57,067 bases of DNA from Elusimicrobiota bacterium (GTDB lineage Bacteria; Elusimicrobiota; UBA8919). Location: positions 1-57,067 of the forward strand of contig JAZDKR010000012.1 of NCBI GenBank assembly GCA_043802785.1. Direction: 5' to 3'. The notes under the pieces are model-generated. The model had not been told where the DNA came from. It saw only the letters and a program-made list of their open reading frames with translations, and did no database searches. The position numbers and the translations under genes were made by a program. This document shows, piece by piece, positions 1,904-33,290 of this stretch (its first letter is position 1; each line of letters begins with the position of its first letter).

Positions 1904-3115
1904 CTACATGAGTCCGAAACCACTATGCAAAACTCTTACCGCTTTATCGGTATCTCTGTTTGATATAACGCAAGAAATTTTTATCTCGGAAGTAGATATC
2001 ATCTGTATGTTTATTCCGTTATCAGCAAGTATTTTGAACATTTTCGCTGCTACGCCGGGATGGCTACGCATTCCAATTCCCACTATTGAAACCTTGGCAA
2101 CATTTTCGTCAAAAATAATCGTGCCACCACCTAATTTTCTGGAAATATTTGACAATAACGAAACGGCAACTTTAAGGTCGTTTTTTGAGACGGTAAATGA
2201 AATATCGTTGTATTTTTCACTGGCAGCCGACTGAATTATCATATCAACATTTATATTTTTCTTTGCAAGTGCGCCGAAAATTTTTGCAGCAATTCCCGGC
2301 TTATCCGGAACATCCGTAATTGAAAGTTTTGATTCGTTTTTATCAAACGCCACACCTGACACAACAACATTCTCCATTTTGGCAACCTCCTTCATAATAA
2401 GTGTGCCTTTTTCTTGCGAAAAACTGGATCGGACATTTATTACAACATTGTATTTTTTTGCTACTTCAATAGAGCGAGACATCATCACCTGACTTCCTAC
2501 TCCTGCAAGTTCTAACATTTCATCATATGAAAGCATATCAAGTTTTTTGGCATCTGTTACGACACGCGGGTCGGCAGTATAAACACCCTTTACATCGGTA
2601 TAAATCTCGCACTCTGTCGCTTTAAGCGCTGCCGCGAGAGCAACAGCAGTTAAGTCGCTACCGCCTCTTCCGAGCGTTGTTATATCATCGTTAGGATTTA
2701 TTCCCTGAAAGCCGGCAACTATAACAATTTTATTTTTTTTCAATTCGTCTATAATTTTTTTTGGCTTTATTTTTTTAATTTTTGCTTTTGTGTGAACGCT
2801 ATCGGAATAAATTCCCGCTTGAGGACCTGTTAAAGAAATTGCATCAAAGCCATTTGATTTTATCGCCATCGTAAGAAGCGCTATTGATTGCATTTCGCCG
2901 GTCGCAAGAAGCATATCCATCTCTCTCGGGTCAGGCATCTCCGTAATACTTCTGGCCCTTTCTATTAAGTCATCTGTCATATCGCCCGGGGCAGATACAA
3001 CAACGACAACTCGTCTGTGGCGGGCTTTTTGTACTACCCGTGCGGCAACATTTTTTATTTTTTCTGATGTTGCCACCGACGACCCACCAAATTTCATTAC
3101 GACAAGATTATCCAT
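1904..3115 (-). CDS. lysC: Aspartate kinase
   Basis: VMKFGGSSV, TTLGRGGSDLTA, YTDVKGVYTADPR motifs; C-terminal ACT domains. Confidence 0.97.
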   Translation of the reverse strand: MDNLVVMKFGGSSVATSEKIKNVAARVVQKARHRRVVVVVSAPGDMTDDLIERARSITEMPDPREMDMLLATGEMQSIALLTMAIKSNGFDAISLTGPQAGIYSDSVHTKAKIKKIKPKKIIDELKKNKIVIVAGFQGINPNDDITTLGRGGSDLTAVALAAALKATECEIYTDVKGVYTADPRVVTDAKKLDMLSYDEMLELAGVGSQVMMSRSIEVAKKYNVVINVRSSFSQEKGTLIMKEVAKMENVVVSGVAFDKNESKLSITDVPDKPGIAAKIFGALAKKNINVDMIIQSAASEKYNDISFTVSKNDLKVAVSLLSNISRKLGGGTIIFDENVAKVSIVGIGMRSHPGVAAKMFKILADNGINIQMISTSEIKISCVISNRDTDKAVRVLHSGFGLM

Positions 3116-3123
3116 ATTTAAAC

Positions 3124-3176
3124 CAGAGATTTGGAAATTAGGAGATTGGGATATTAGGAAAAGTCAAAATCCTAAT
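3124..3176. repeat. Half copy of the GAGATTRGG/CCTAATCTC palindromic element family
   Basis: Minus strand AATTAGGATTTTGACTTTTCCTAATATCCCAATCTCC matches 44502-44538; includes the MTase TAG stop. Confidence 0.75.
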
Positions 3177-4164
3177 TAAAATTAAAATCAAACAAATCTT
3201 TATTTGTGATTTTTTCAACATTATTATTTATGTAATCCCTTAATGGTGTCATAATTTTTAAATTCTCTTTAAGAAATATCGGGGTAAAATCTATCTGTGT
3301 AATATCCTCGGGTATATAAAAATACTCTTTCAAATGTTCCCAATCTTTATCTCTCAATGTAGCAACCTTCCCTAAATAAATACTTGCCCATATCTTGCCT
3401 AATTTCGAATTTGATTTTTCTTTTAATAATTTGTTTTTAGCAATTTCAACATAGTTATTATCCAATTCAAATCCTACATAATTCCTACCCAATCTTTTTG
3501 ATGCAATCGCAGTTGTTCCAGTCCCAGCAAATGGATCTAAAACTATATCGTCTTCATCCGTTGACATCAAAACAATACGCTCCAACAAATGAAGAGGCAA
3601 TTGACAAGGATGTTCATCTCTAAATTTATTATGTTTTATTCTGTAAATATCAGACCACACATCAGACACTAAAGGACCAAACGGATGTAAAAGAGATTTT
3701 TTTCCACCATAATCTTTCATCAAATAACTACTTTTTCTTTCTCTTTTATGTGGACATCTTATTTCATAAAATTTTAACTTACTTTTTTCTTTTGCATAAA
3801 ATAAAATCCCATAATGTGCCGGTTGTAATGTCTTTCCCATAGGTGCAGTAGATGCGTTCCAGCAAATCCAATGTTTGAAGTCCGCAATTTTATTTAAGTA
3901 CACAGAATAGTAAGTCAACCATTTGGGTATATTATGTATAAATATTGACCCTGTTGATTTAGTAATCCTGACCATTTCAGAGACCCATTGTTCACACCAA
4001 TTTAGATATTCCTGAAACTCTAAACTATCCCTATAACCATTGTATTTTTTTTTCAAATTAAAAGGAGGATCAGCAAATGTCATATCAATACTATTGTCAG
4101 GAATAGTTTTTAATAATTCCAAACAATCGCCTTGAACAATATGATTTAAATATTTTTTTATCAT
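3172..4164 (-). CDS. DNA amino-methyltransferase (N4/N6, beta class), R-M system 1
   Basis: DPPF catalytic motif N-terminal; HPCQLP; VLDPFAGTGTT SAM-binding motif. Confidence 0.93.
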   Translation of the reverse strand: MIKKYLNHIVQGDCLELLKTIPDNSIDMTFADPPFNLKKKYNGYRDSLEFQEYLNWCEQWVSEMVRITKSTGSIFIHNIPKWLTYYSVYLNKIADFKHWICWNASTAPMGKTLQPAHYGILFYAKEKSKLKFYEIRCPHKRERKSSYLMKDYGGKKSLLHPFGPLVSDVWSDIYRIKHNKFRDEHPCQLPLHLLERIVLMSTDEDDIVLDPFAGTGTTAIASKRLGRNYVGFELDNNYVEIAKNKLLKEKSNSKLGKIWASIYLGKVATLRDKDWEHLKEYFYIPEDITQIDFTPIFLKENLKIMTPLRDYINNNVEKITNKDLFDFNFN

Positions 4165-4166
4165 TT

Positions 4167-5150
4167 TTATAAATTGAATGCTTTAAGCAAAAAATTTTGG
4201 AATCGTTCTAATTCGGATTTATGAAACGTAAAAACTTCGTCATATGCAGAGACCATCCTCTGTAAATCGCCTTTTCGTACATACCAACCAATTCCGTCAA
4301 CAAAACCAATAAATTTTGCTTTCGGATAATATTTCTTTATCAAACCATTAATATTCCCTTCGGTTTTAGATTTATCTCCTTGACCTGAAGATGTGGTAAC
4401 AAGAAATGAACTTTCAATAATAATTTTAGGTTTTTTCTTATTCGGAATGATAAAATCCATTGTACGCTTTGCGACTTTTTCATTTTTCAGTAGTTCTGTC
4501 AAATCGCCTTTTTCAAAAGTTAAATTTAAATCTTTTAGAATATTTTCCAACAAAAATTCCGGATTATTTTCCGCTTTACCGGAATATGAACCCTTTTCTT
4601 TATACCTTACAAGAGTATCAATCATTGCGGGAATATCAAATTTTAATTTTGATATACTTAATTTTTTAAGTTCAAATAACGGAAGTGTATCGGCAAGGAA
4701 AGGAATGGTAGAACCTTCAAAAAATATATTAACTATTCCTTTTCTAAAATAGGAATTTTCAGCGACTAATTTTGTAATTTTTGTGTCCGACCATTCTTTA
4801 ATCTCGGTGAGTTTTTCTTCTTCAATCCACCTTTCCCTATAAACTAATTTCGATAACTCCGGATTTTTAATAACTCTACTGATTGTAATCAATCTTTTTA
4901 AGTTTTCATTTGAAAAACCTGTTAAAGCAAGTAAACATCTCAATCCGTTAGATTTGTTTTCAAGCAATCTTTCAAAAATTTCTTTTTTTATTCCTTCGGT
5001 TTCAAGTTGATTTTTTAGAACAAGCAATGTCTCAGTGAGAGAATTAATATAACTTTCATACTTTTCCTGAAAAACAGGATTATAAAAATAGAAAGTATTT
5101 TTTTCAATTACCGTTTTAAATTTTTTATCATTGATTGAAAGTAACTTCAC
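4167..5150 (-). CDS. Type II restriction endonuclease, DpnII/MboI-like PD-(D/E)xK fold
   Basis: MDFII...IIIESSF...FIGFVDGIGW resembles DpnII-family motifs; adjacent MTase. GTG at 5150 overlaps the thrB TGA (ORF track starts at 5162). Confidence 0.75.
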   Translation of the reverse strand: MKLLSINDKKFKTVIEKNTFYFYNPVFQEKYESYINSLTETLLVLKNQLETEGIKKEIFERLLENKSNGLRCLLALTGFSNENLKRLITISRVIKNPELSKLVYRERWIEEEKLTEIKEWSDTKITKLVAENSYFRKGIVNIFFEGSTIPFLADTLPLFELKKLSISKLKFDIPAMIDTLVRYKEKGSYSGKAENNPEFLLENILKDLNLTFEKGDLTELLKNEKVAKRTMDFIIPNKKKPKIIIESSFLVTTSSGQGDKSKTEGNINGLIKKYYPKAKFIGFVDGIGWYVRKGDLQRMVSAYDEVFTFHKSELERFQNFLLKAFNL

Positions 5151-6070
5151 TCTTGCCTCCAAGCAACTCTTATCCCTTCGTTATCAAAATCGCAGACGAT
5201 ATACTTTGATTTTATGTTGTGTTTGTAAAATGCTTTCTGCATCGATTGACCGATCTTCGTTGCTGACCGCTGACCGCTGACAGCTAAAATTGTTGGACCG
5301 CTTCCCGAAATACAAACACCATATGCACCGGATTTTTTTGCAGAGTTAAAAACATCATCCATACCGGGAATAAGTTTTTTTCTATATGGCTGATGGAGTT
5401 TGTCGTCCATCGCAATTGAAAGCAAATCGTATTTTTTCTGAATAATTGCCGATACAAAAAGCGCAACCCTACTTGAATTGAAAACTGCATCTTTGTGCGA
5501 AACCATCTTCGGCAAAATATCTCTTGCCTTACTCGTTGATAATTCAAAATCCGGAATACACAAAACAGCTTTTAATTCCGATGGAATGTTTATTTTCGTG
5601 TATTTTACATTTTTTCCGTCAAAATTGCAAATGCACAACCCACCAAAAAACGAAGGCACGACATTATCCGGATGACCTTCAAGTTGTGAAACAATCTGAA
5701 TAATTTCATCTCCCGAAAGTTTTCCACCACAAATTTCATTAGCAGCAACTATCCCACCCAGACGGGCAGCAGCGGAGCTTCCGAGTCCTCTTGCCAAAGG
5801 AATGTTATTTATTAACTGCATGTGTAAAGTGTAAGGTGTAAAGTGTAAAGTATTAAAAACCTTTTTCATTGTCTGCCAAACGATATTTTTTCCGTCTCTC
5901 GGAAGCGTTTCCACCCCCTCTCCTACAATCTCAATTTTTAATTCTGAATTCTTAATTCTGAATTCTGACACTTCTATCTCGTTGTATAATTTTAACGATG
6001 CACCGAGCACATCAAACCCGCTGCCGAAGTTCGCCGTCGTCGCCGGAATCTTAATTTTTATTTTTTTCAT
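5147..6070 (-). CDS. thrB: Homoserine kinase
   Basis: PATTANFGSGFD, IPLARGLGSSAA (GHMP), EGHPDN, SGSGPT motifs. Confidence 0.96.
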   Translation of the reverse strand: MKKIKIKIPATTANFGSGFDVLGASLKLYNEIEVSEFRIKNSELKIEIVGEGVETLPRDGKNIVWQTMKKVFNTLHFTPYTLHMQLINNIPLARGLGSSAAARLGGIVAANEICGGKLSGDEIIQIVSQLEGHPDNVVPSFFGGLCICNFDGKNVKYTKINIPSELKAVLCIPDFELSTSKARDILPKMVSHKDAVFNSSRVALFVSAIIQKKYDLLSIAMDDKLHQPYRKKLIPGMDDVFNSAKKSGAYGVCISGSGPTILAVSGQRSATKIGQSMQKAFYKHNIKSKYIVCDFDNEGIRVAWRQE

Positions 6071-6210: not shown

Positions 6211-6483
6211 TTAGATTTTTTTGTAAATATCCCCACGTGGAAGAATTAGTATAATATGAATTATTCTTTCCTTAGGTTCTATCCAATAAACAGATCTCAA
6301 CCAGGCATTTTCAATCCTGTATAAACCAGTATGCCCTTTCAATTGTTTTATCTTCCCAGGATAGTAAAAGGGATTCTCTTCTAATAGTGTGAAATCCTCT
6401 GACAATGCCTTCCTTGTCTTCTCTACACATTTTTTGTAGTATTTACTTGCTTTTTTGTGTAGACGAACTTCAAATTTTAGCAT
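6211..6483 (-). CDS. RelE/ParE-family toxin
   Basis: 90 aa, basic; IKQLKG.TGLYRI...LR.VY.I......I..I.PRGDIYK pattern; overlaps the antitoxin stop. Confidence 0.85.
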   Translation of the reverse strand: MLKFEVRLHKKASKYYKKCVEKTRKALSEDFTLLEENPFYYPGKIKQLKGHTGLYRIENAWLRSVYWIEPKERIIHIILILPRGDIYKKI

Positions 6484-6727
6484 ATTTCACTTTTCTCCAA
6501 TTAGTTCCTCTTTCCTTATATGACTCTGTTAATGCTTCTTCAATCATTGCCCATTCTTTAATAGTAAATTCATCTTCTATTCTTTCAACAATAGATTCTC
6601 TTACTATCTCAGAAATACTTTTGTATTGTCTGTGAGCAACATCGTTAAGATAATTATAAAGCACCCCAGGGACCCTTACGCCAACGATTCTTTCTTTGCT
6701 ATCAGTTTTAACTGTGCAAGTAGACAT
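6470..6727 (-). CDS. Ribbon-helix-helix antitoxin
   Basis: VGVRVP...L..VA....KSISEIVRESI RHH pattern; AAGGAGG RBS before ATG 6727; upstream of the toxin. Confidence 0.8.
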   Translation of the reverse strand: MSTCTVKTDSKERIVGVRVPGVLYNYLNDVAHRQYKSISEIVRESIVERIEDEFTIKEWAMIEEALTESYKERGTNWRKVKYAKI

Positions 6728-6750
6728 ATTCAACCTCCTTTGTTATACAT

Positions 6751-6779
6751 ATTATAACAAAACAAAACAGTTTTGTCAA
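6751..6779 (-). promoter_or_regulatory. Consensus sigma70 promoter of the TA operon
   Basis: TTGACA-17 nt-TATAAT on the minus strand. Confidence 0.85.
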
Positions 6780-6811: not shown

Positions 6812-7639
6812 CTAAATATCAGTTTGGAATACTTTAAAATACCCGTTTAGTAAATGTTTGATTTTGAAATTCTTAATTGTTTGAAAATCACGGTCAAAAA
6901 CTATTTTTAGTTTTTTCATATACTCCATTTCGTCCGCATTGTCATGCAAAGGCAGTAGAAAATTTAGTGTGTTATCTCCGATTTCAGGATATTTTTTACT
7001 ATTTAAGATATTCCCTTCCACTTTAACTTCTGTCATAATACGAAAACGTAGTTTTACAGATGCTTTATCAACATTTCTTACTCTGCTAAAATTTTCTTGT
7101 TGTGAAAAAATTGAAAGTAATTTCTTTTTCCACTCGTCAGAAATTTGCTCGTCGATTTCTTTTAACCTTTCTTCCAAAACCTGCCCAAAAGATTGTTGAA
7201 TTAGTTCATCAATTTTTAGTGTTTCAAAAAAACTTCCATGGACTAAACATACCTTAATTTTTCCGTTATGTTTCCCTCTAATAAGATAAAATACATCTCT
7301 TGTCGGTAATGATAAAATATTATTACCCGCATTTTCCATTTGTTGTTTTATGATGCTATTTTCGCTTGTAACAATTTTCGCGATTTCTTTTTTACCTGTG
7401 GGAATTGTTGAATTAAAGGAAGACACTGTATATGAATCCGAATCTTTTAATTCAATCAATTCACCGCCCGTGAAAAGAGATTTGTCTGAATTTAATCTTA
7501 TAGCCATATCCGGGAATACGCCATCATTCCTACAAGAAAGCATTTTTTTATCAAAAGGGAAATTTCCTAATTTTTTGATTTTTACAAAAGATTCCCTGTT
7601 ATCGCATAAATTCTTAAAAAAATGATAAATTGAGTTCAT
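6812..7639 (-). CDS. Probable type II restriction endonuclease, R-M system 2
   Basis: FPDMAI...GGELIELK PD-(D/E)xK signature; directly downstream of an MTase. Confidence 0.65.
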   Translation of the reverse strand: MNSIYHFFKNLCDNRESFVKIKKLGNFPFDKKMLSCRNDGVFPDMAIRLNSDKSLFTGGELIELKDSDSYTVSSFNSTIPTGKKEIAKIVTSENSIIKQQMENAGNNILSLPTRDVFYLIRGKHNGKIKVCLVHGSFFETLKIDELIQQSFGQVLEERLKEIDEQISDEWKKKLLSIFSQQENFSRVRNVDKASVKLRFRIMTEVKVEGNILNSKKYPEIGDNTLNFLLPLHDNADEMEYMKKLKIVFDRDFQTIKNFKIKHLLNGYFKVFQTDI

Positions 7640-7642: not shown

Positions 7643-8650
7643 TTATTTAAACAATGCTATTTGTTGAAATTTAGTATTAAATGATTCTCTTCCTTGTTCT
7701 GTTTCAGTTTCTGTTCCCCAGATTTTATCTAAATTTTCAGTACATTTATAGTCCTTATAATATTTTTCAATGTCGTCACTTCTTTTTATTTTTCTTAATC
7801 TATTTTCAATACATTTTACATTTTCTGGATCTACCTCTATACCAATTGCCTTTCTATTTAATTGAGAAGCAACAACTAATGTGGTCCCCGTCCCGGCAAA
7901 AGGGTCCAAAACAACATCATCCACATTCGTTGAAGATAGTATAATTCGTAATAATAACGCCATGGGAGATTGTTGTTTATGAAACCTTGTGCCGTCGGTC
8001 TTTTTAATCGCCTCATCACCTGCAAAATATCCAGAAGTTAATTCTCTTATATCATCCAACACATCAGTAACATATAAACCATTTTCTCGTTCGTATTTAT
8101 ATCCCGATGGAAGCGGCGGAGAAATTCTCAAACGATTAAAGAACCTCGGCTTTTTGCCTTTGGTAGCAAAAGCAATAATTTGATATTGTTTGCTAAATTT
8201 ATTGCAACACGGAACGGCAGAAGTTTTCTTTTTCCAGACAATCAGATTATGCAATGTCCATCCAGTTTTACAAAGACAATGCAATACAAATTCCGCATTT
8301 TTTTCCCGCTGCATAAAATAAACTGCGCCGCCGTCAACAGTTTTGTTGTATGTATTTGATAATACTTCCGTCATAAAATCCCAATATTCGCTATCAGGTA
8401 AAGAGTCATCAAAAAATTTATATTCTTTACCTTGATTGAATGGTGGGTCCAAAAAAGTCAGATGAACTTTGGTTCCGCTATCTCTCTTCAACCAATCAAG
8501 ACATTTGCAATTGTAAATAGTCGCATTCTCTCTAATTTCAATTATTTTTTCTTGTTCTGGCAAGTAATCAATTTTTGTTTTTTCATGAAAACATTTGGAA
8601 TATTTTTTTGGTTTATAGATTTTATTCTGATTTTCACTTTTAATTTTCAT
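7643..8650 (-). CDS. DNA amino-methyltransferase (beta class), R-M system 2
   Basis: FLDPPF; VLDPFAGTGTT. Confidence 0.93.
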   Translation of the reverse strand: MKIKSENQNKIYKPKKYSKCFHEKTKIDYLPEQEKIIEIRENATIYNCKCLDWLKRDSGTKVHLTFLDPPFNQGKEYKFFDDSLPDSEYWDFMTEVLSNTYNKTVDGGAVYFMQREKNAEFVLHCLCKTGWTLHNLIVWKKKTSAVPCCNKFSKQYQIIAFATKGKKPRFFNRLRISPPLPSGYKYERENGLYVTDVLDDIRELTSGYFAGDEAIKKTDGTRFHKQQSPMALLLRIILSSTNVDDVVLDPFAGTGTTLVVASQLNRKAIGIEVDPENVKCIENRLRKIKRSDDIEKYYKDYKCTENLDKIWGTETETEQGRESFNTKFQQIALFK

Positions 8651-12215: not shown

Positions 12216-12345
12216 TTTCTTACCTTTTTTAATCGCGGAGCGAAGCCAAGTAGGTTCACTGGTAGCGAACAAGAAATTTCTGAAGAGCCTCTATTTGCGA
12301 CTTATTCGTTCCGAGCGACTTTGCCTTTCACCGCTCCCATTCCAG

Positions 12346-25568: not shown

Positions 25569-26348
25569 TTATTTTTTCATTCTATCTGAAATAATTTCTG
25601 CAACTTTTTTGCCACTCATAAGCATTCCACCGAAAATAGGACCCATTCTCTGTGCACCAAATATAGCATTACAACACATCCCACATGAATAGACCCCCGG
25701 ATATATTTCTTTTGTATTTTCAAGAATCTTTTTCTCCCCTATTTCGGCATTCATCTCTTTTTCTCCCATAATTTTACCAGTTTTTGTTTTTAATTTACAA
25801 CCATTTTTGTCCTGAAGTTTATGGGCAACTTCTGCTGGATGGCCTGTTGCATCTATAACATATTTTGTTCCCACTGTGATAGGGTCAACATGGAGTTTGG
25901 CAATTTCAACAGCACTCCAATTTACAACTAATCCGCTGACCCTTCCCTTTGTAATCATAACATCTTCAGCACTCATTAAATTAAATATCTTTACTCCTGC
26001 TTTTGATGCTTTGGAACAAATTGTTGAAACCGTCTCAACCGAATCAGCACAATAATAACCATCACCCATATCTTTTGTTTTTACATCAAATTCATCGAGA
26101 ATTTTTTTTGCATTATTTTGAATGACGATTTCGTTAAACATTATTCCGCCGCCCCACATCCCACCGCCTATTGAAAGTTTCCTCTCAAAAAGAATTACTT
26201 TTACATTTTCTTTTGCAAGATAATAAGCAGCCGTTAATCCGGCCGGGCCACCGCCAACTACGACAACATCGGACTTCAAACTATCAAGCAACTTTTCCGA
26301 AAATTGCTTGATTATTAATTCGGATATTTTGACATCATCTAATACCAT
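25569..26348 (-). CDS. thi4: Sulfide-dependent thiazole synthase Thi4, copy 2
   Basis: [33 protein letters not shown]; start at MVLDD. Confidence 0.93.
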
Positions 26349-26517
26349 TTTACTATCCTCCTTTTTAGAGTTCCTGTTAGTCATTTTAATAAGTTAGCCG
26401 ACTAAAACATGCCCCGATAAAATCGGGGTCGGGCATAATTTATTCCCCACTTCAGTTGGGACAAATCTTCCAAATTCCGATACTATAATTTATGTACATA
26501 AGCGTTCAATCCAGTTG

Positions 26518-27768
26518 TTAGCAGTTCGGCTTTTTCAATACAACAATATACTCGCAATTCATAGTGGTATTCTTTGCGCCAGTAACATTTGTCGGACTGT
26601 TTTCTTTTGGCATCCGCTTGCTCGGAATGTTGCGAATGATTGTTTCTATATGCGTAACATTGTGTTGCTCAAAAAACTTTGCAGTAGCAATATCTGTTGG
26701 AAGTTCCTCATCTTTCACTCGTCTGTTTCCGACAACATATGCAATGTTGCATCCTGGTTTAATTGTCTTAGCAACATTTGAAATTGAAATTTTGTAATCG
26801 TGGTAAAAACTAATTACATCTAACGCTCGCTTCTCGTCTTTGTTCCCTATTTTCTCAATTTGTTTGTCCAACTCTTTCACGCCAAACTTTTCATAATTCT
26901 TTGCTCGTCTACCTCCCATTAAATTATTGTCAACCTGATTTGCATTTTTAAGTCCTAACCACTGATTTGAAAGTCGTGAAAATTGTCCATATGCAACAGT
27001 AGTTTTGCTATCTCCATATGGTGGCGAGGTAACAATCAAATCAATGCTTCCTTCCTTGATAATTTTCTTTGGGATATCGTTAATTGTATTAAAGTCACAA
27101 ATCTGATTTTTCTTATGTGCTTTAACTTGCTCAATGAAATTTTTCAAGCCGTTTCTATTTCTGAAAATTTTTCTTTCAAAAATTGTGAAAACATCTGGAG
27201 AAAATTTTTTTAGTTGCCCTTCTTTCATTCGCACTAATTTGAATTCACTATTTTTTGTCAGCGAACTTTCTCTAATAGTTTCGCTAAACGCAACTTTGAA
27301 AAAGGCAATCACATTTTCATCTTCAATTTTGTCGATGTAGTTTTTAATCCTTGCTAAATGTTGTTTCACTTGCGGAGTAAACCAAAAATCAACATTTTGG
27401 AAATATGGAATCTCTATTGTTTCATTTTTAATTCCGAATTTGTATTGAAAAATAAAATCGTTGAAATCCTTTAAATAAAAATCTAAAACTTGTAATGGAA
27501 TTACAGTTGACTTTGCTTTTGTGATTAGTCGGGCTAAAGGATTTATGTCTGTTGCAATTCCGCTTATACCACGCAAGTTTGCTTCAACAACTGAAGTTCC
27601 TGTTCCGCAATAGGGGTCAAACAAAACATCATTTTTCTTTCCTAAACGGTCAATCAATCTTCCTGCAATTTGAGGTATCATCATTGCTGGATAATTGTGG
27701 AAGCAATGAGTGAAAACTTTTGTATCCGCTGTCCTGAAATCCCAAGAATTGTCTGTATATTTTTTCAT
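26518..27768 (-). CDS. N4-cytosine DNA methyltransferase (M.MvaI-like), R-M system 4
   Basis: HNYPAMMIPQ, FDPYCGTGT, TSPPY; ATG at 27768 coupled to the REase stop. Confidence 0.9.
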   Translation of the reverse strand: MKKYTDNSWDFRTADTKVFTHCFHNYPAMMIPQIAGRLIDRLGKKNDVLFDPYCGTGTSVVEANLRGISGIATDINPLARLITKAKSTVIPLQVLDFYLKDFNDFIFQYKFGIKNETIEIPYFQNVDFWFTPQVKQHLARIKNYIDKIEDENVIAFFKVAFSETIRESSLTKNSEFKLVRMKEGQLKKFSPDVFTIFERKIFRNRNGLKNFIEQVKAHKKNQICDFNTINDIPKKIIKEGSIDLIVTSPPYGDSKTTVAYGQFSRLSNQWLGLKNANQVDNNLMGGRRAKNYEKFGVKELDKQIEKIGNKDEKRALDVISFYHDYKISISNVAKTIKPGCNIAYVVGNRRVKDEELPTDIATAKFFEQHNVTHIETIIRNIPSKRMPKENSPTNVTGAKNTTMNCEYIVVLKKPNC

Positions 27769-28439
27769 AGTAATTTTGTTTTTTCGGCAAAACATTGAAT
27801 AAGATTTTTTTCCGTTCCTCTATTTCTAACTGCACCCGATGGATTTAAGTGCATCCTCAAATCTACAACTACGAAACCTTGCTCTATCAATTTTAGCAAT
27901 CCATTTTTGCTTGGAGTTTTCAATAAGTATGCTTCGTTGTAATGAAATTCTTCTTTGTCATTTTCATCTCTACGGGTATTAGCAAGAACTAAAATGAGTG
28001 AGGGTAGTTTTGCTGAAAAGTATTTCAATAAAATTGTTGCGTCCCACTCAGCAATCAAAGTTTTGTCGGTGTGATACATTTGAAGCGATTGCTTCGTTAC
28101 TTTCAAATAAAGTCCTTGTGCGTTTGGTATAACACGAACAAAACATTTCAATGCCTTTCGTTTCTGCTTGTCTTTGTAGCCATAAGTTTTGATAACATCC
28201 GATTGATGAATTTTCCAAACTCCACTATTAAAAGTGAACATCGTTATAAATGAAGAAACGTTTTTCCGTTTTGATTTCAACTCAATCTTTCCGAGATCGG
28301 GAAGTTTGATATTGTTTTCTTTAATATCCAAAAGCGTTTCAATCGTGTACCCAATTCCTGTATTGTTTTTTCGCTTTGATTGCACAAAACCTAATTTCTC
28401 AATCGCTGTCAGTTTACTTTTAAATTCCGATAATGTCAT
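27765..28439 (-). CDS. MvaI/BcnI-family restriction endonuclease
   Basis: TGIGYTIETLLDIKENN..LPD...IELKS...ITMF signature. Confidence 0.85.
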   Translation of the reverse strand: MTLSEFKSKLTAIEKLGFVQSKRKNNTGIGYTIETLLDIKENNIKLPDLGKIELKSKRKNVSSFITMFTFNSGVWKIHQSDVIKTYGYKDKQKRKALKCFVRVIPNAQGLYLKVTKQSLQMYHTDKTLIAEWDATILLKYFSAKLPSLILVLANTRRDENDKEEFHYNEAYLLKTPSKNGLLKLIEQGFVVVDLRMHLNPSGAVRNRGTEKNLIQCFAEKTKLL

Positions 28440-28545
28440 AAAATATTTTGTCGGTTTTCCCTACAAACAAATCACCCTTATGGGATTACGGTTTCGTTTC
28501 TATTATCTTTTTGAATTTTCCTGTTTCAAAAATAGAAGTATATCT

Positions 28546-29664
28546 TCAAATTCTTATCAGCCATTGCTTAAAAAATACATCATTTATATTGTATGAACCG
28601 TTGGATTTATCAATTAATTCTTTCAATAACAAACTTTTTATTGTCTTTTGAACAACCGAAGCAGTTAGATTAAATTTTTGAAGGTTCTCAATTGAATATA
28701 TTTTATTCTCCTGCCCCGATTCTACAAGCATTTTCAACACTTTTTTCTGGTTCAGAGAAAGTTCATCCCAGATATTACTGTATGCACTCTTTTCTTCAGC
28801 GAGAGTAAGTGTTAAAGCATCCTCAACTGTTTTTTCATCAATCCGCTTATGTTCAGCAAGTTTCCACACTGAACTACCCAAATGTTGCACATAATACGGA
28901 TGACATTCGGCTATATCTACAATTTTTTTGGCAATATTTTCAGGTATATTCATCCCGGTAGATTTAAACCTTTCAACAACAAAAGATGTTAATTTATCCG
29001 ATGATATTTTACCTATGGGATAATGTCTGCCAATTTTATAAAAAGGTCGGTTGGGATTGGAAAACATATCATAAATCAAATGTTTTTTACTGCCCATAAA
29101 AATATAGGATACTTTTCTACCGTGTGTTTGCACAATTCCCCGAAGGCGTTTTTCTATTTTGTCTGTGCCAAGCAAACCTATCTGCTGAAATTCATCAAAA
29201 ACAACAACCACCTGTTTTTTATATTTATCTGCATACCTTTTTACTGCACTTCCGACATCTTCTATCATCATATTAGTATCTTTGATTAAATCCACACCGA
29301 TTTCTGTATCACCTTGTGGATTAATTACTATTTTAGGACGGAGCGACTTAAAGATATTTTTCAAATTGCTTATTATTTTTTCCATTGAACCCGATAACGT
29401 TTTGGATATGGCGGCAGCATAGATAGAAACAAAATCTTCTTCTTTTAATACGGCATACAGGTCAACATAAATACCGACAACACCTTCTTTTTCGGCTTTT
29501 TTCAGAACCTCTTTTATAAGTGATGTCTTGCCATATCTCCTGGGGGAATAGACAATAACATTCTGTCCGCTTATAATGTCTGATACAAGTTCTTTAATTT
29601 CTTTTGTTCTGTTACAGAATATTTCTCCGAACACTTCCTGTCCATAAACAAACGGATTTTGCAT
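28546..29664 (-). CDS. AAA ATPase (archaeal-ATPase type) with C-terminal wHTH
   Basis: NPFVYG, F.NR..E, SPRRYGKTS Walker A, FDEFQ Walker B, HPYYVQ. Confidence 0.88.
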   Translation of the reverse strand: MQNPFVYGQEVFGEIFCNRTKEIKELVSDIISGQNVIVYSPRRYGKTSLIKEVLKKAEKEGVVGIYVDLYAVLKEEDFVSIYAAAISKTLSGSMEKIISNLKNIFKSLRPKIVINPQGDTEIGVDLIKDTNMMIEDVGSAVKRYADKYKKQVVVVFDEFQQIGLLGTDKIEKRLRGIVQTHGRKVSYIFMGSKKHLIYDMFSNPNRPFYKIGRHYPIGKISSDKLTSFVVERFKSTGMNIPENIAKKIVDIAECHPYYVQHLGSSVWKLAEHKRIDEKTVEDALTLTLAEEKSAYSNIWDELSLNQKKVLKMLVESGQENKIYSIENLQKFNLTASVVQKTIKSLLLKELIDKSNGSYNINDVFFKQWLIRI

Positions 29665-29759: not shown

Positions 29760-30539
29760 TCATTCTTTGATTCTGTCTGAAATAATTTCGGCGACTTTTT
29801 TACCGCTCATAAGCATTCCGCCGAAAATAGGTCCCATCCGCTGGTCGCCGAATACAGCATTACAACACATCCCACAGGAATAGACACCTGGGTATATTTC
29901 CCTTGTGTTTTCAAGAATCTTTTTTTCTCCTATATCAGCGTTCATTTCTTTTTCACCCATAATTTTACCCGTTTTTGTTTTTAATTTACAGCCGTTTTTA
30001 TCCTGAAGTATATGAGCAATTTCTGCAGGATGTCCTGTGGCATCTACAACATATTTAGATGCTACTGTGATAGGGTCAACATGGAGTTTGGCAATTTCAA
30101 CAGCACTCCAATTTATAACTAATCCGCTGACCCTTCCCTTTGTAATCATAACATCTTCAGCACTCATTAGATTGAATATCTTTACTCCTGCTTTTGATGT
30201 TTTGGAACAGATTGTTGAAACCGTCTCAACTGAATCAGCACAATAATAACCGCCACCCATATCTTTTGTTTTTACATCAAATTCATCAAGAATTTTCTTT
30301 GCCTTATCTTGAATAACAATTTCATTAAACATTATTCCGCCGCCCCACATCCCACCGCCTATTGAAAGTTTCCTCTCAAAAAGAATTACTTTTACATTTT
30401 CTTTTGCAAGATAATAAGCAGCCGTCAGTCCTGCCGGACCGCCACCGACGATAGCAACATCGGACATTAGACCGTCAAGCAGTTTTTCCGAAAATTGCTT
30501 GATTATCAGTTCGGATATTTTGACATCATCTAATACCAT
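29760..30539 (-). CDS. thi4: Sulfide-dependent thiazole synthase Thi4, copy 1
   Basis: Same motifs as copy 2; about 20 aa differences over 259. Confidence 0.93.
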
Positions 30540-30713: not shown

Positions 30714-31706
30714 TCAAACCGTAATTGAATACTGCCTGTTGCGTCTTGTACCGACGGGTATAATTCTTTTTGTTTTTAGTAACGGATTTAATACCTTGTA
30801 AAGACCCTGTCGAGTAATATAAAGTTCCGATGTAAGTTGTTTTATTGTTTTGGGACCATCTTGCGATAATATCATTAGCAATTTCTTTTGCGTTTCGGAA
30901 AGTGAGGGTAATTTCTTTTCCGTTGCCTGCGCCGATTTAAGACGATTAACTGCCCTCGCAAGACCTTCGGCTGTGATATCGGAAATATATTCCAGCCAGT
31001 CAGCCAAGCCGCCGGGTTTTCTTGCGTTGCTTAATTGCAAATAATATAATTTTCTGTTTTCTAACAAAATATCGTCAAGCGTAAAAACATGCAGAGTATC
31101 AAACCCCCGACGATACAATTCCCAAATGGCTAATGCTCTGGCTACTCTACCGTTACCGTCACGAAATGGATGTATTGTTGCAATTTCAAAATGGGCAAGA
31201 GCAGAACTTAAGACAGGATGGTATTGGTGGCTTTCGTTATTCAACCATTCTAAAAACTCTCTCATCAGATACGGCACTTTTTCAGATGAAGGTGGCGTGT
31301 GGTCCCCGACATATACTTGAACCTTCCTATATTTACCGACAGGACCACCGGCAACTGCTTTCTCACCGATGATTTTGTGCAATGTAAAAATACTGCCTTC
31401 CGTAATAACTTTTGTATTTTCTTTTTCTCTTATCCATCTGACAACATCTAAATAATTTTTAACCATCTGTATATGAAACTCTGGCTTTCGTGGTCTTTCA
31501 CCGTCGGCTACTTGTTTGACTTCTTGAGGCGTCAATGTGCTTCCTTCAATTGTTGTTGAGGCATATGCCATTATTATCGCTGATTCTTTTTGAACCACCG
31601 GGACAAATACTCCTTTTGTTGAACTACCTGTGATTTTGCCCTGTAAATAATCAATCTCTGATAGCGTTTTCATTACTCTCGGTCTGATTTCAAGATTATT
31701 CAACAT
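30714..31706 (-). CDS. Fic-family protein with C-terminal wHTH
   Basis: STTIEG inhibitory motif; HPFRDGNGRVAR catalytic motif. Confidence 0.92.
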   Translation of the reverse strand: MLNNLEIRPRVMKTLSEIDYLQGKITGSSTKGVFVPVVQKESAIIMAYASTTIEGSTLTPQEVKQVADGERPRKPEFHIQMVKNYLDVVRWIREKENTKVITEGSIFTLHKIIGEKAVAGGPVGKYRKVQVYVGDHTPPSSEKVPYLMREFLEWLNNESHQYHPVLSSALAHFEIATIHPFRDGNGRVARALAIWELYRRGFDTLHVFTLDDILLENRKLYYLQLSNARKPGGLADWLEYISDITAEGLARAVNRLKSAQATEKKLPSLSETQKKLLMILSQDGPKTIKQLTSELYITRQGLYKVLNPLLKTKRIIPVGTRRNRQYSITV

Positions 31707-31745: not shown

Positions 31746-31774
31746 AGTTTACATAAAGATTTGCATAAAGTCAA
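31746..31774 (-). promoter_or_regulatory. Probable sigma70 promoter of fic
   Basis: TTGACT-17-TAAACT; tandem ATGTCAAC repeat just downstream (possible operator). Confidence 0.6.
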
Positions 31775-31818
31775 GCGGAAAAACGAACTTTCATTAAATG
31801 TTGCTTGAATTTAATGGC

Positions 31819-32103
31819 TCTTCTCCTTTTCGTGTGGGTAAAAAACAGCAGTTTATAGACGAAAAAGACCACTGAAAAACTTGGCAGAATTTTACCCATA
31901 TGTGTCATTCTCGCGCACATACTGTGCCATAATCCAAAAATGTAGTTGCTCTTACAGAGCCTACTTTTGGCCAATCTTGCTTGGCAATAGTAACCATTTA
32001 TTAGCCCGCCACAGGCGGGCGCGACACAGTCTGTTCGCAGAAATGACAGCCCCTAAAGAATCTTGTTTTTCTGGTCATTTTTACCCACAGGAAACGGCGA
32101 AGA
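31819..32103. repeat. ~285 bp imperfect foldback downstream of tyrS
   Basis: TCTTCTCCTTTTCGTGTGGGTAAAAA / TTTTTACCCACAGGAAACGGCGAAGA outer arms; TGTCATTCTCGCGCACATACTGTG / CACAGTCTGTTCGCAGAAATGACA inner arms. Confidence 0.75.
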
Positions 32104-32126
32104 CCCTCTTTTTTAGACAAAATTGT

Positions 32127-33290
32127 TTATCCTATTTTTACTTTTTTGAATTTTCTTTTGCCGACCTGGATTAAAATTTCGCCGCTGATTTCTATAATTT
32201 TGTCAGCCAGTATTTTTTCTTCGTTGATTTTAACTCCGCCCTGTTTTATCAATCGCTCCGATTCTTTTTTGCTGGAACAAAGCCCTGCATCTACCAGCAA
32301 TTCCGATATTTTTAGTTCTTTTTTTTGCGAAACATATTCTTCTATTACCGACGGCAATTCTTTTTCGGCAAATATTTTATTAAATTCATTTTCAGCATTA
32401 TCAGCAATCTCTTTTGAATAAAATTTACCTACTATTATTTTTGCAAGATGCTGCTTCATCTGTTTTGGATGACCTTTGATAACATCGTCCAGATTTTCAT
32501 TTGTGAGAAGTTCAAAATATTTGTACATAAGTTCGTCGGAAATTGACATAATTTTGCCAAAAATTTCCGACGGTACTTCCGAAATACCGATATAATTTCC
32601 ATATGACTTTGACATTTTTTGCACGCCGTCAGTGCCTTCTAAAAGTGGCATCGTCATAACAACTTGTGGCAGTTGGCCATAATCCTTCTGAATTTGGCGC
32701 GCCATGAGAAGATTGAATTTCTGGTCGGTGCCGCCGAGTTCTATGTCGGAATTTACTGCAACGGAATCATAGCCAGTCAACAGCGGATACAAAAATTCAA
32801 GAATTGTTATATCGGTTCCGCTTTTGTATCTCTGATTAAAATCGGCACGAGCAAGCATCTGTGCAACGGTAGAATGTTTTGCCAATTCCATAAGACCGTC
32901 AAGTCCTAATGAATAAAGCCAGTGGCTGTTAAATCTAACTTCCGTTTTTTCCTTATCTAAAATTTTGAAGACCTGTTCCTGATATGTCTTTGCGTTGTCC
33001 AAAATTTCACTCTCGTCCAAAACAGGTCTTGCCTCGCTTCTACCCGACGGGTCACCGATACGGGCTGTAAAATCACCGATAATAAAAACAACATTGTGCC
33101 CTAAATCCTGAAATGTCTTGAGTTTTTCCATTACGACGGTATGTCCAAGATGAATATCCGGCGAAGTCGGGTCAACACCTAATTTAATTCTCAATGGTCT
33201 GTTAAGTTTCAATTTCGCAGTAAGTTCTTCTTCTGAAATTATTTCAACGACACCTCGCTTTATTTTAGATAGTTGCTCGTTTATGTCCAT
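32127..33290 (-). CDS. tyrS: Tyrosyl-tRNA synthetase
   Basis: [18 protein letters not shown]-terminal S4 domain. Confidence 0.97.

What the first reader, a model, noticed from the sequence alone, without database searches (positions are those of the whole stretch)
1904..33290. Defence cargo interleaved at nearly every junction of biosynthetic operons, all co-oriented
Seen (minus-strand order): tyrS | fic | thi4 | ATPase, R-M | thi4 | HEPN-MNT, CsgG-like, hypotheticals, zeta pair | ilvC | cassette array | small TM gene | lipoprotein pair | aminotransferase-hom-thrC | MTase, ART, REase, MTase, REase, TA | thrB | REase, MTase | lysC. Cargo genes overlap host stops (thrC ATGA to MTase; thrB GTGA to REase). 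There is no integrase, transposase or tRNA att site. Inference: a distributed defence island in which cargo uses host operon transcription and translational coupling and could be exchanged by homologous recombination between conserved flanking genes.
Basis: partly seen in the sequence, partly recalled or inferred. Interest (0 to 1): 0.75.

Follow-up and report, generated by a model that had tools for sequence, protein, structure and literature searches.

The report
Defence genes wedged between biosynthesis genes
In an uncultivated Elusimicrobiota bacterium, a row of eight conserved housekeeping genes has been stretched from about 9 kb to 31 kb by small foreign gene modules, mostly restriction-modification and toxin-antitoxin genes, slipped in between them; this pattern has been described before in the same phylum.

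Summary
Eight backbone genes (tyrS, ilvC, a small membrane gene, an aminotransferase, hom, thrC, thrB, lysC) keep the same order in all 11 other genomes of the order. There they span about 9 kb when the junctions are empty; here they span 31.4 kb. Five of 7 backbone junctions are filled with 26 low-GC genes: four type II restriction-modification sets, TA-type modules, a Fic protein, a three-attC cassette array without an integrase, and envelope proteins.

Relatives have empty junctions or different cargo. Cargo shared with relatives is much younger at synonymous sites than the flanking genes (0.74-0.93 against 0.50-0.60 for R-M and Fic cargo shared with the congener). So modules were exchanged horizontally at the same junctions.

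Three points weaken the "special island" reading. The genome carries 32 matches to one methylase family alone. Co-orientation and 4-nt overlaps are this genome's default. Recombination in the flanks is plausible but not shown, and read-through transcription could not be tested.

The closest precedents are restriction-modification genes acting as mobile elements in Endomicrobium, Neisseria minimal mobile elements, and transfer hotspots that lack mobile elements. Verdict: a new member of a known kind, of moderate interest.

The parts
1904..3115 (-). lysC (aspartate kinase), backbone
   Evidence: Pfam AA_kinase + ACT; 78-89% aa identity in 10 relatives at the same position
3172..4164 (-). MT1, N6/N4 DNA methyltransferase of the RE1-MT1 module
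   Evidence: PF01555 1.7e-50; PADLOC MTase_II 2.2e-73; 98% aa and 0.93 fourfold-site identity to G001
4167..5150 (-). RE1, putative type II REase; GTG start overlaps thrB's stop (GTGA), GGAGG upstream
   Evidence: Weak RE_BanI/DpnII C-terminal hits; followed by an MT1 homologue in 77 of 80 loci from many phyla; junction read
5147..6070 (-). thrB (homoserine kinase), backbone; its last codons were replaced by the insert
   Evidence: GHMP kinase domains; alignment with empty sites
6211..6733 (-). TA-like pair: RelB/DUF6290 antitoxin 6470-6733 and a weak ParE-like ORF 6211-6483
   Evidence: PF19807 2.3e-6; NF046040 6.3e-7; ParE_toxin 0.0022, below cut-off
6751..6779 (-). Perfect TTGACA-17-TATAAT promoter-like site in front of the TA pair
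   Evidence: 12 of 12 matches with TG; site counts overall are at shuffle level
6812..7639 (-). RE2, putative REase partner of MT2
   Evidence: No Pfam, PADLOC, NCBIfam or PDB hit; Atlas structure match to an NgoPII-family cluster, TM 0.61/0.60: a lead only
7643..8650 (-). MT2, N6/N4 DNA methyltransferase
   Evidence: PF01555 6.2e-41; PADLOC MTase_II 4e-43
8686..9585 (-).
   Evidence: No hits; nearest named Atlas clusters 0.78-0.80, leads only; fold pLDDT 36.8
9573..10088 (-).
   Evidence: No hits; fold pLDDT 33.2
10144..11091 (-). MT3, DNA methyltransferase; its ATG overlaps thrC's stop (ATGA)
   Evidence: PADLOC MTase_II 1.7e-108; at the same junction in G005, G006, G008 and G011; fourfold identity 0.62 to G011 against 0.29-0.38 for the backbone
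11088..15069 (-). thrC, hom and an LL-DAP-type aminotransferase: backbone
   Evidence: Pfam; NCBIfam; synteny
15118..17180 (-). DUF6973 protein (480 aa) plus a 207-aa ORF; an insert found only in G000
   Evidence: PF22322 3.8e-20; the TM|AT junction is 8-223 nt in 9 relatives; a metagenome contig joins 15005 to 17266
17221..17484 (-). 87-aa membrane protein, conserved backbone gene
   Evidence: 67-89% aa identity in 9 relatives between ilvC and the aminotransferase
17515..17878 (.). Nested MITE-like palindrome that cuts off the PIN ORF
   Evidence: Inverted repeats; DNA fold z -7.2; inner 173 nt is 96% identical to a copy on another contig; about 13 terminal-repeat-like sites genome-wide
17850..19937 (-). 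Cassette array: HNH | attC | DUF4160(DhiT)+DUF2442 | attC | GyrI-like | attC | AbrB/MazE-like + truncated PIN
   Evidence: attC-like sites at 19562-19632, 18905-18975 and 18248-18318; Pfam and NCBIfam
20089..21147 (-). ilvC, backbone
   Evidence: KARI_N/KARI_C; 82-92% aa identity in all 11 relatives
21370..25518 (-). Zeta-toxin-domain kinase, 167-aa ORF, CsgG-like 622-aa protein, MNT and HEPN
   Evidence: PF06414 1e-12, PF03783 3.4e-14, PF01909, PF05168 2.9e-22; no tblastn match in the relatives' loci searched
25569..26384 (-). thi4b, the thiazole synthase copy linked to RE4-MT4
   Evidence: PF01946 1.7e-80; 89.6% nt identity to thi4a; fourfold identity 0.77 to G001's single thi4
26518..29664 (-). 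ATPase (STAND-like), RE4 (MvaI/BcnI family) and MT4
   Evidence: PF15515 1.6e-36, PF01637; PADLOC MTase_II 3.7e-129; RE4-MT4-thi4 is also linked in G001
29760..30539 (-). thi4a
   Evidence: PF01946 3.9e-80; closest to G008's thi4, fourfold identity 0.72
30714..31706 (-). Fic-domain protein, SoFic-like
   Evidence: PF02661 3.7e-21; PADLOC SoFic 1.5e-50; in G001 it lies next to ilvC instead
32127..33290 (-). tyrS, backbone
   Evidence: tRNA-synt_1b 9.6e-76; synteny

Best explanation
The region is a conserved, co-directional array of housekeeping genes (tyrS, ilvC, a small membrane gene, an aminotransferase, hom, thrC, thrB, lysC) in an Elusimicrobiota genome. Its intergenic junctions act as insertion hotspots.

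Small low-GC modules have accumulated there one by one. They include type II restriction-modification pairs, TA-type pairs, a Fic protein, an ATPase, envelope proteins and a three-cassette attC array. This is part of a genome-wide proliferation of restriction-modification genes in this lineage.

Shown: the backbone is shared by the whole order. Junctions are empty or differently filled in relatives. Shared modules are much younger than their flanks, so they were exchanged horizontally among related species while keeping their junction.

Inferred: first insertions happen by recombinase-independent (illegitimate) events of the kind proposed for restriction-modification genes as mobile elements. 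An existing insertion then spreads between relatives by recombination in the conserved gene ends next to it. The attC cassettes were placed by an integron integrase acting in trans.

Also inferred: tightly fused modules (MT3 behind thrC, RE1 behind thrB) are probably expressed by read-through and coupled translation. Other modules (TA pair, Fic, ATPase, RE4, thi4b) may use their own promoters.
For: Backbone and expansion. The same gene order occurs in all 11 other genomes of the order held. lysC to tyrS spans 8.7-9.1 kb in G007 and G002, against 31.4 kb here.

Junction variability.
- thrC|thrB: adjacent (0-7 nt) in 4 relatives (G002, G003, G004, G007). Filled with different gene sets in 5 (G005, G006, G008, G010, G011). 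Rearranged in G001 and unreadable in G009.
- thrB|lysC: empty in 9 of 10 readable relatives. G001 carries the same RE1-MT1.
- tyrS|ilvC: 17-57 nt in 3 relatives, with other genes in the rest.
- TM|AT: empty in 9 of 9 readable relatives.

Composition. Cargo is 32.5% GC over 18.4 kb, backbone 39.6% over 8.3 kb, genome 37.4%.

Age discordance at fourfold sites.
- G000 vs G001 backbone: 0.50-0.60.
- G000 vs G001 cargo: MT1 0.93, RE1 0.89, MT4 0.87, RE4 0.86, thi4b 0.77, Fic 0.74.
- MT3 vs G011: 0.62, against 0.29-0.38 for the backbone.

RE1-MT1 profile. Identity to G001 is 89-100% per 100 nt across the insert (mostly 96-100), against 49-96% in thrB and 66-91% in lysC. The thrB fusion junction is near-identical in the two genomes (1 mismatch in the new tail), and the young tract takes in about 57 nt of thrB's 3' end.

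Mobility of the unit. RE1-MT1 homologues (65-90% aa) occur in many phyla. Only 1 of 80 loci has thrB/lysC flanks.

Genome-wide load. PF01555 matches number 32 (G000), 35, 28, 17, 13 and 11 in genomes with filled junctions, against 2, 3, 3 and 8 in those with empty ones.

No classical mobility genes. The window has no tRNA, integrase or transposase. None of the genome's three tyrosine recombinases reaches the integron-integrase cut-off.

Precedent in the phylum: PMC4760077.
Against: No conspecific genomes or contigs were available, so turnover within a species was not seen.

For both modules profiled, the young tract stops within about 60-90 nt of the module edges. Crossovers scattered through long flanks would look different. 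A mechanism that moves exactly the module is therefore not excluded.

Modules shared with G001 in the tyrS|ilvC junction stand in a different order. Replacement of a whole junction by flank recombination would not give this.

The window comes from a MAG (78% complete, 93 contigs), so an integrase or transposase could sit in the missing part.

Expression coupling is untested. The sigma-70 consensus scan may not suit this phylum, and its counts equal those of shuffles.

Co-orientation and 4-nt overlaps are the genome's default.
Confidence: 0.7

Rival explanations
1. The modules are autonomous, recombinase-free mobile units (restriction-modification genes acting as their own mobile elements, for example through REase-made breaks and end joining). 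They target gene ends directly, and recombination in the flanks plays no part.
For: Young tracts coincide with module edges. Shared modules stand in a different order in G000 and G001. RE1-MT1 is found in many phyla in unrelated contexts. The same proposal was made for Endomicrobium (PMC4760077).
Against: The thrB fusion junction is near-identical in G000 and G001, and about 57 nt of thrB sequence lies inside the young tract. Independent illegitimate insertions would hardly repeat that. No flanking direct repeats were found. The apparent remnant of the old thrB end is not above chance: 57-150 of 500 shuffles reach the score. No k-mer is shared at module borders beyond A-runs.
Confidence: 0.2
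2. All cargo is old and vertically inherited from the ancestor of the order, then lost in some lineages. Its high similarity reflects purifying selection, not transfer.
For: MT3 sits at the same junction in 5 of 12 genomes of the order, G000 included. RE4-MT4-thi4 and Fic are shared with the congener.
Against: Fourfold-degenerate sites, which protein-level selection barely constrains, are far more alike in cargo than in flanks (0.74-0.93 against 0.50-0.60 for R-M and Fic cargo shared with G001; MT3 0.62 against 0.29-0.38). Most G000 cargo has no tblastn match in the relatives' loci searched.
Confidence: 0.05
3. The interleaving is an assembly or binning artefact: a chimeric contig that joins cargo from other organisms to the backbone.
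For: The source is a MAG with 93 contigs. Of the 28 G000 methylase matches checked, 7 lie within about 1 kb of a contig start, so these loci are hard to assemble.
Against: Independent MAGs show the same kind of inserts at the same junctions (G001, G005, G006, G008, G011). The junctions are in frame and fused to host gene ends. The same fusion junction occurs in another assembly.
Confidence: 0.03

Closest known systems
Restriction-modification systems as mobile elements in Endomicrobium (Elusimicrobia), Zheng et al. 2016, PMC4760077 (parts 1 and 2 of 3: abstract, results and discussion, start of the references; supplements not seen)
   Same: Same phylum. R-M genes are inserted between housekeeping genes that are contiguous in a relative (mutS|mutL, aroF|aroA). 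No transposon, prophage or flanking direct repeats were found. One insertion into an amino-acid biosynthesis cluster came with a duplicated flanking gene (tyrA), much like the two thi4 copies around ATPase-RE4-MT4 here. Top hits of the R-M genes lie in distant taxa.
   Different: There most R-M genes are pseudogenes in a reduced endosymbiont, and they are tied to 166 synteny breaks. Here the frames are open, the backbone order is kept, five junctions of one array are filled, and non-R-M cargo (TA, Fic, attC cassettes, envelope proteins) shares the junctions. Synonymous-site evidence for exchange at the same junction between species is added here.
[quoted passage not shown] 2007; definition seen only as quoted in PMC3787668)
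   Same: Variable gene content sits between specific conserved flanking genes. There are no mobility genes. The proposed exchange mechanism is homologous recombination in the flanks.
   Different: MMEs are defined among closest relatives of a naturally transformable species. Here only species-level representatives were available, competence is unknown, and flank recombination is not demonstrated.
HGT hotspots that lack mobile elements, with recombination at flanking core genes (Oliveira et al. 2017, PMC5635113; abstract and outline only)
   Same: Transferred genes concentrate in a few intervals between core genes. Many such hotspots have no recognisable mobile element.
   Different: That study worked on within-species pangenomes. 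Here several hotspots lie only one to three genes apart inside a single co-directional gene array.
Insertion of R-M genes with long target duplication (Furuta et al. 2010, PMC2853133; abstract and outline only)
   Same: Recombinase-free R-M insertion into chromosomal genes. thi4 copies flank ATPase-RE4-MT4.
   Different: The thi4 copies are only 89.6% identical, and only in the coding part. No direct repeats flank RE1-MT1 or G001's RE4-MT4.
CALIN, a cluster of attC sites lacking an integron integrase (Cury et al. 2016, 10.1101/030866; search listing only)
   Same: Three attC-like sites lie 657 nt apart, each behind a small promoterless cassette, with no integrase nearby or in the assembly.
   Different: The array lies between two conserved housekeeping genes of a phylum where integron integrases were found in only 2 of 21 genomes searched. 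The reference attC model of IntegronFinder was not run.
DpnI/DpnII cassette exchange in Streptococcus pneumoniae (recalled, no paper seen)
   Same: Alternative R-M cassettes occupy one chromosomal site between homologous flanks and are exchanged by recombination. RE1 has a weak DpnII-family C-terminal hit.
   Different: That case has two alternative cassettes in one species, with the mechanism shown by genetics.

Membership tests
Minimal mobile element / flank-recombination hotspot | Different gene content between the same conserved flanking genes in relatives | tested here: met
   thrC|thrB: 4 empty, 5 filled with different sets, 1 rearranged, 1 unreadable among 11 relatives; thrB|lysC: 9 of 10 empty
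Minimal mobile element / flank-recombination hotspot | No mobility genes or terminal repeats with the variable segment | tested here: met
   No integrase, transposase or tRNA; no flanking direct repeats; no shared border motif. Exceptions: the attC array and one MITE-like palindrome in the ilvC|TM junction
Minimal mobile element / flank-recombination hotspot | Exchange by homologous recombination in the flanking genes | tested here: inconclusive
   Near-identical junction in G001, and about 57 nt of thrB lies inside the young tract. But tracts end within about 60-90 nt of module edges, and module order differs in the tyrS|ilvC junction
Minimal mobile element / flank-recombination hotspot | Variation among the closest relatives (strains of one species) | not testable with these tools
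   No close relatives in metagenome contigs. One run held 0.07 of the words; 7 of 249 laid pieces were 99% alike or more
Type II restriction-modification system | DNA methyltransferase domain | tested here: met
   PF01555 and PADLOC MTase_II for MT1, MT2, MT3 and MT4
Type II restriction-modification system | Adjacent cognate restriction endonuclease | tested here: inconclusive
   RE4 is in the MvaI/BcnI family (1.6e-36). RE1 has weak REase hits and is paired with MT1 homologues in 77 of 80 loci. RE2 has only a structural lead to NgoPII. The ORFs behind MT3 have no family
Integron cassette array (CALIN) | Two or more attC sites (RYYYAAC...GTTRRRY ends, imperfect palindrome) less than 4 kb apart | tested here: met
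   Three sites, 81% mean column identity, 17 predicted pairs, TCTAAC/GTTAGA ends; 72-93 bits against the model built from them, with no other site in the genome. The motif consensus is recalled; IntegronFinder's model was not run
Integron cassette array (CALIN) | No integron integrase nearby | tested here: met
   None in the window. Three tyrosine recombinases in the assembly score 56-140 bits against TIGR02249's cut-off of 265. The assembly is 78% complete
Classical genomic island (integrase + tRNA/att + direct repeats, acquired en bloc) | One contiguous foreign segment with an integrase and att repeats | tested here: not met
   Cargo is split into at least 5 junctions by backbone genes conserved across the order. 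There is no integrase or tRNA
Defence island | Significant local clustering of defence genes | tested here: inconclusive
   4 of the genome's 32 PF01555 matches lie in this window, which is 3.6% of the assembly: about a 3.5-fold enrichment. No formal test was run, and only 11 of the 25 cargo proteins scanned hit PADLOC

The most novel reading that the evidence does not exclude
The conserved gene ends of an essential amino-acid biosynthesis array serve as order-wide docking sites for promoter-poor defence modules. Each module brings its own ribosome-binding site and rewrites the last codons and the stop of the host gene (as RE1 does to thrB and MT3 to thrC). Its expression is then hard-wired to the biosynthetic operon. 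It cannot be deleted imprecisely without killing an essential gene, and it can pass between species that are only about 80% identical, because the gene ends next to it stay recombinogenic.
Probability: 0.2. Interest if true: 0.6.

Novelty: new member of a known kind. Interest (0 to 1): 0.4.

Why it matters
The region is an unusually dense and clean example of accessory defence genes spreading without any recognisable mobile element. Five insertion hotspots lie within one array of eight conserved genes, and empty sites in sister genomes allow base-level reading of the junctions.

The synonymous-site contrast between cargo and flanks gives direct evidence that related but well-diverged uncultivated species share a pool of restriction-modification modules that land at the same junctions.

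If the coupling to host operons were shown, defence expression would be tied to amino-acid biosynthesis, which would help explain why such modules persist. As it stands, the finding extends to free-living relatives a pattern already published for Endomicrobium.

Tried and rejected
- RNA evidence: no RNA holder was listed for window 2000-11999. The single DNA run held 0.07 of the words. Its contigs are mostly from relatives: of 249 pieces, 7 were 99% alike or more and 122 were under 90%. One contig joins 15005 to 17266 with 111 letters between, which is an empty TM|AT site in a relative. Weaker joints (11082 to 6051, 11073 to 6772) have short sides and are not used as evidence.
- Closer relatives: a metagenome-contig scan with thrB gave 6 loci at 37-69% identity, none close.
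- Target duplication at RE1-MT1: the apparent remnant of the old thrB end right of MT1 is not above chance (57-150 of 500 shuffles reach the score). No direct repeats of 30 nt or more flank RE4-MT4 in G001. In G000, only the thi4 coding parts repeat.
- Shared recombination motif at module borders: in 23 spacers, only A-runs and start-codon contexts recur, at shuffle level. The attC model hits nothing else in the window or genome.
- Promoter and terminator scans gave 67 against 61.4 +/- 8.7 and 70 against 58.2 +/- 7.3 promoter-like sites. They gave 13 against 10.0 +/- 3.2 and 16 against 11.9 +/- 3.5 terminator-like sites. This is no signal either way.
- Riboswitch before thi4: no Rfam match, at gathering score over the window or at E<=1 over 25300-33500.
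- Identity of the 171-aa and 299-aa ORFs: single-sequence folds had pLDDT 33.2 and 36.8 and were unusable, so no fold search was run. PDB sequence searches were empty.
- One genomic island acquired en bloc: rejected by backbone synteny.
- Special co-orientation of cargo: rejected as a signal, because 88.6% of adjacent ORF pairs in the genome are co-oriented and other methylase loci look the same.
- Earlier scan notes: none for this genome.

Full report
WHAT IS THERE

The window is contig C12 of a 1.56-Mb metagenome-assembled genome (93 contigs, 78% complete). A congener's contig is titled Elusimicrobiota. From 33290 down to 1904 every ORF of note lies on the minus strand.

- tyrS
- Fic (SoFic-like, PADLOC 1.5e-50)
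- thi4a
- a STAND-like ATPase, an MvaI/BcnI-family REase (RE4) and a methylase (MT4)
- thi4b
- HEPN and MNT, a 622-aa CsgG-domain protein, a 167-aa ORF and a zeta-toxin-domain kinase
- ilvC
- four small cassettes
- an 87-aa membrane protein (TM)
- a DUF6973 protein and a 207-aa ORF
- an LL-DAP-type aminotransferase (AT), hom and thrC
- a methylase (MT3), a 171-aa ORF, a 299-aa ORF, a methylase (MT2), a 275-aa ORF (RE2) and a RelB/ParE-like pair
- thrB
- an REase (RE1) and a methylase (MT1)
- lysC

thrC's stop and MT3's start form ATGA at 11088-11091. thrB's stop and a GTG start of RE1 form GTGA at 5147-5150, with GGAGG just upstream. The window has no tRNA. No scanned ORF has an integrase or transposase domain, and the rest of the window is ordinary housekeeping.

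Some labels are unsupported. The 'ART' ORF (171 aa) and the 299-aa 'REase' hit nothing, and their single-sequence folds are unusable (pLDDT 33.2 and 36.8). The 275-aa ORF behind MT2 has only a structural lead to NgoPII-type enzymes (TM 0.61). Only 11 of the 25 cargo proteins given to PADLOC hit any model.

BACKBONE AND CARGO

The collection holds 11 other genomes of the same order. I fetched the region from all of them and mapped the window's proteins onto it.

The order PBP1 | tyrS | ilvC | TM | AT | hom | thrC | thrB | lysC recurs throughout. lysC to tyrS spans 8.7 kb in G007 and 9.1 kb in G002, against 31.4 kb here. The eight backbone genes make up 8.3 kb at 39.6% GC. The 26 inserted genes make up 18.4 kb at 32.5% GC. 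The genome is 37.4% GC. The small TM gene is backbone, not cargo.

Five of the 7 backbone junctions are filled here. AT|hom and hom|thrC are empty (51 and 235 nt).

- thrC|thrB. The genes are adjacent (0-7 nt) in G002, G003, G004 and G007. The junction is filled in five relatives:
  - G008: a 111-aa ORF, MT3 and a 246-aa ORF.
  - G006: a split MT3, another methylase and a 363-aa ORF.
  - G011: MT3 and a 351-aa ORF.
  - G010: a 252-aa ORF.
  - G005: MT3, an AIPR protein, a methylase, then a contig break, with a 376-aa ORF next to thrB.
  G001 is rearranged (thrC is followed by cvpA and sugar-nucleotide genes). G009 is unreadable. Among the unnamed partner ORFs, only G005's 376-aa and G006's 363-aa proteins are related (64%).
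- thrB|lysC. Empty in 9 of 10 readable relatives. G001 has the same RE1-MT1.
- tyrS|ilvC. The gap is 17-57 nt in G002, G004 and G007. Elsewhere it holds DUF2157/GDYXXLXY membrane proteins, a thi4, CsgG-like or unknown ORFs. G001 has RE4, MT4, one thi4, two small ORFs and Fic. The 1.0-1.8 kb gaps in G005 and G009 were not annotated.
- ilvC|TM. The gap is 79-203 nt in 8 relatives. G004 has an NHL/CsgG protein there.
- TM|AT. The gap is 8-223 nt in all 9 relatives where TM was found.

So the predicted 'empty junctions or different cargo' is what is seen. Identical cargo across the lineage is not.

AGE OF CARGO AND FLANKS

Identity at fourfold-degenerate sites separates the two classes.

G000 against its congener G001:
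- Backbone: lysC 0.57, thrB 0.60, thrC 0.58, ilvC 0.56, tyrS 0.50.
- Cargo: MT1 0.93, RE1 0.89, MT4 0.87, RE4 0.86, thi4b 0.77, Fic 0.74, thi4a 0.69.

MT3 against G011 (another family) scores 0.62, while the backbone against G011 scores 0.29-0.38.

Selection on the protein cannot explain this. The shared modules were exchanged between these lineages, or drawn from a common pool, after the lineages split, and they kept their junction.

A 100-nt identity profile of G000 against G001 runs at 89-100% (mostly 96-100) from 5175 to 3176. It gives 49-96% in thrB and 66-91% in lysC.

At base level, the insert replaced the last three codons and the stop of the ancestral thrB. It added a six-codon tail that contains GGAGG and the GTGA overlap. 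G001 has the same junction, with 1 mismatch in the tail. The last roughly 57 nt of thrB differ at 2 positions between G000 and G001, but visibly more from G008, G010 and G005. lysC diverges from its start codon onward.

For MT3, the elevated identity to G011, G008 and G005 is confined to the gene itself. Homology is lost completely downstream of it.

HOW THE MODULES MOVE

Three observations keep this from being shown:
- All four tract ends examined lie within about 60-90 nt of a module edge.
- The modules shared with G001 in the tyrS|ilvC junction stand in a different order. G001 has tyrS-RE4-MT4-thi4-x-x-Fic-ilvC. G000 has tyrS-Fic-thi4a-ATPase-RE4-MT4-thi4b-...-ilvC. The modules therefore also move singly.
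- No conspecific genomes could be found.

I found no alternative mechanism either:
- No direct repeats flank the modules.
- The apparent remnant of the old thrB end right of MT1 is not above chance.
- No motif is shared at module borders.
- The attC model hits only its own three sites.

The RE1-MT1 unit itself is widespread. Of the 80 best loci from a scan of species genomes, 77 have an MT1 homologue behind the RE1 homologue. They come from many phyla at 65-90% identity, and only G001's has thrB and lysC as flanks.

The two thi4 copies are 89.6% identical over the coding part only. thi4b goes with RE4-MT4 as in G001. thi4a is closer to G008's copy. So one copy probably arrived together with the R-M pair.

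IS IT A SPECIAL ISLAND?

Probably not.

G000 has 32 matches to the N6/N4 methylase family alone, and four of them lie in this window. Across relatives, methylase load tracks junction load. Genomes with filled junctions have 35, 28, 17, 13 and 11 matches. Genomes with empty ones have 2, 3, 3 and 8.

In a crude ORF call of the whole genome, 1142 of 1289 adjacent pairs are co-oriented. Methylase genes elsewhere sit in co-directional runs with gaps of -4 to about 20 nt. Of 28 checked, 7 lie at contig starts. Co-orientation and 4-nt overlaps are therefore the house style of this compact genome, not a property of this region.

EXPRESSION

Nothing could be tested. No RNA run was listed, and promoter- and terminator-like sites equal shuffle counts.

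The anatomy suggests a mixture. MT3 and RE1 are fused to host stops. The thrC|thrB and thrB|lysC inserts are packed with gaps of -14 to 140 nt. But the TA pair has a perfect TTGACA-17-TATAAT (6779-6751). Promoter-like hexamers lie in the spacers before Fic, the ATPase, RE4 and thi4b. A GC-rich hairpin follows MT4 (26428-26412).

In the relatives with empty junctions, thrB directly abuts or overlaps thrC. Here thrB therefore depends either on 5 kb of read-through or on a promoter inside the cargo.

THE CASSETTE ARRAY

The three repeats end in TCTAAC and GTTAGA and fold as imperfect palindromes. Each follows a small gene set in the usual cassette orientation:
- an HNH nuclease;
- DUF4160 (DhiT-like) with DUF2442;
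- a GyrI-like protein.

A fourth unit, an AbrB/MazE-like antitoxin with a PIN ORF, is cut off after 59 codons by a nested palindromic repeat at 17515-17878 (DNA fold z -7.2). The inner 173 nt of that repeat has a 96% copy on another contig, and its terminal motif recurs at about 13 sites.

No integron integrase is in the assembly. The best tyrosine recombinase is XerC/D-like at 140 bits against a cut-off of 265. None was found in the 10 family members searched. Two of 21 genomes of the phylum have one. Weak attC-like matches occur in G006 and G010. The array is therefore a cluster of attC sites without an integrase.

COMPARISON WITH WHAT IS KNOWN

The nearest precedent is in the same phylum. 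Zheng et al. (PMC4760077; parts 1 and 2 of 3 read; supplements not seen) found R-M genes inserted between housekeeping genes that are contiguous in a relative. One insertion was into aroF|aroA, with duplication of a flank. They found no transposon structures or direct repeats, and proposed that R-M systems act as mobile elements.

Three further precedents describe the same logic:
- Neisseria minimal mobile elements (definition seen in PMC3787668).
- Transfer hotspots that lack mobile elements but show recombination at flanking core genes (PMC5635113, abstract only).
- Alternative DpnI/DpnII cassettes (recalled, no paper seen).

Insertion with long target duplication (PMC2853133, abstract only) was tested here and is not supported for RE1-MT1.

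Earlier notes of this scan on other genomes describe a low-GC patch with R-M scraps and a CsgG-like gene between ispG and proS of another Elusimicrobiota genome. They also describe a defence operon inserted with a 42-bp target duplication. I did not check those claims.

My searches were aimed at these precedents. I ran no search for this particular array, and none of the listings describes it.

VERDICT

The phenomenon is a dense new example of a known kind.

Noticed in passing
window 17515-17878: Nested palindromic, MITE-like repeat (DNA fold z -7.2). The inner 173 nt has a 96% copy on contig C89. A terminal motif of about 30 nt recurs at about 13 sites in the genome. The repeat truncates a PIN (VapC-like) ORF at 17850.
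   Followed up: partly
window 2-1879 (minus strand): A 626-aa open frame runs off the contig end directly behind lysC, with no Pfam or NCBIfam hit and no match in the relatives' loci searched. In relatives, lysC is followed by a leuA/cimA-like gene (in G001 by DUF5674 plus an ORF, then leuA). lysC|leuA therefore looks like a sixth variable junction.
   Followed up: partly
window 33291-33976; L032, L034-L036, L038-L040: Seven relatives examined carry a YfhO-family membrane protein gene of about 2.1 kb between tyrS and PBP1. It is missing here and in G011 and G001, and only two small ORFs (70 and 102 aa) remain in the window.
   Followed up: no
window 26385-26517 and L047 11000-11140, 13060-13200: The spacer before thi4b has two GC-rich hairpins. 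In G001 its 3' part lies upstream of RE4, and its 5' part lies between MT4 and thi4, as if RE4-MT4 had landed inside a thi4 leader. No Rfam family matches, TPP riboswitch included.
   Followed up: partly
window 22831-24699; L034 9107-9913; L040 4554-6296; L048 8618-10057: CsgG-domain proteins with differing added domains (TPR, NHL, none) recur as variable cargo at different junctions of the backbone or elsewhere in relatives. An earlier scan note reports one in another Elusimicrobiota junction.
   Followed up: no
L066-L129 (many loci): In many other phyla the RE1 homologue is preceded, at -17 to +11 nt, by a co-oriented ORF of about 410 aa that is often distantly MT4-like. The common form of this system is therefore M-R-M, and the two-gene R-M form here and in G001 is a reduced variant.
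   Followed up: partly
G000 contigs C4, C17, C42, C43, C72, C80, C86 (starts): Of the 28 methylase-family matches checked, 7 lie within about 1 kb of a contig start, which suggests that assembly breaks at strain-variable R-M loci.
   Followed up: no
L140 (G015:C12) and L141 (G014:C112): Two Elusimicrobiota genomes of other families encode proteins above the integron-integrase cut-off (401 and 375 bits). Their cassette arrays were not examined.
   Followed up: no
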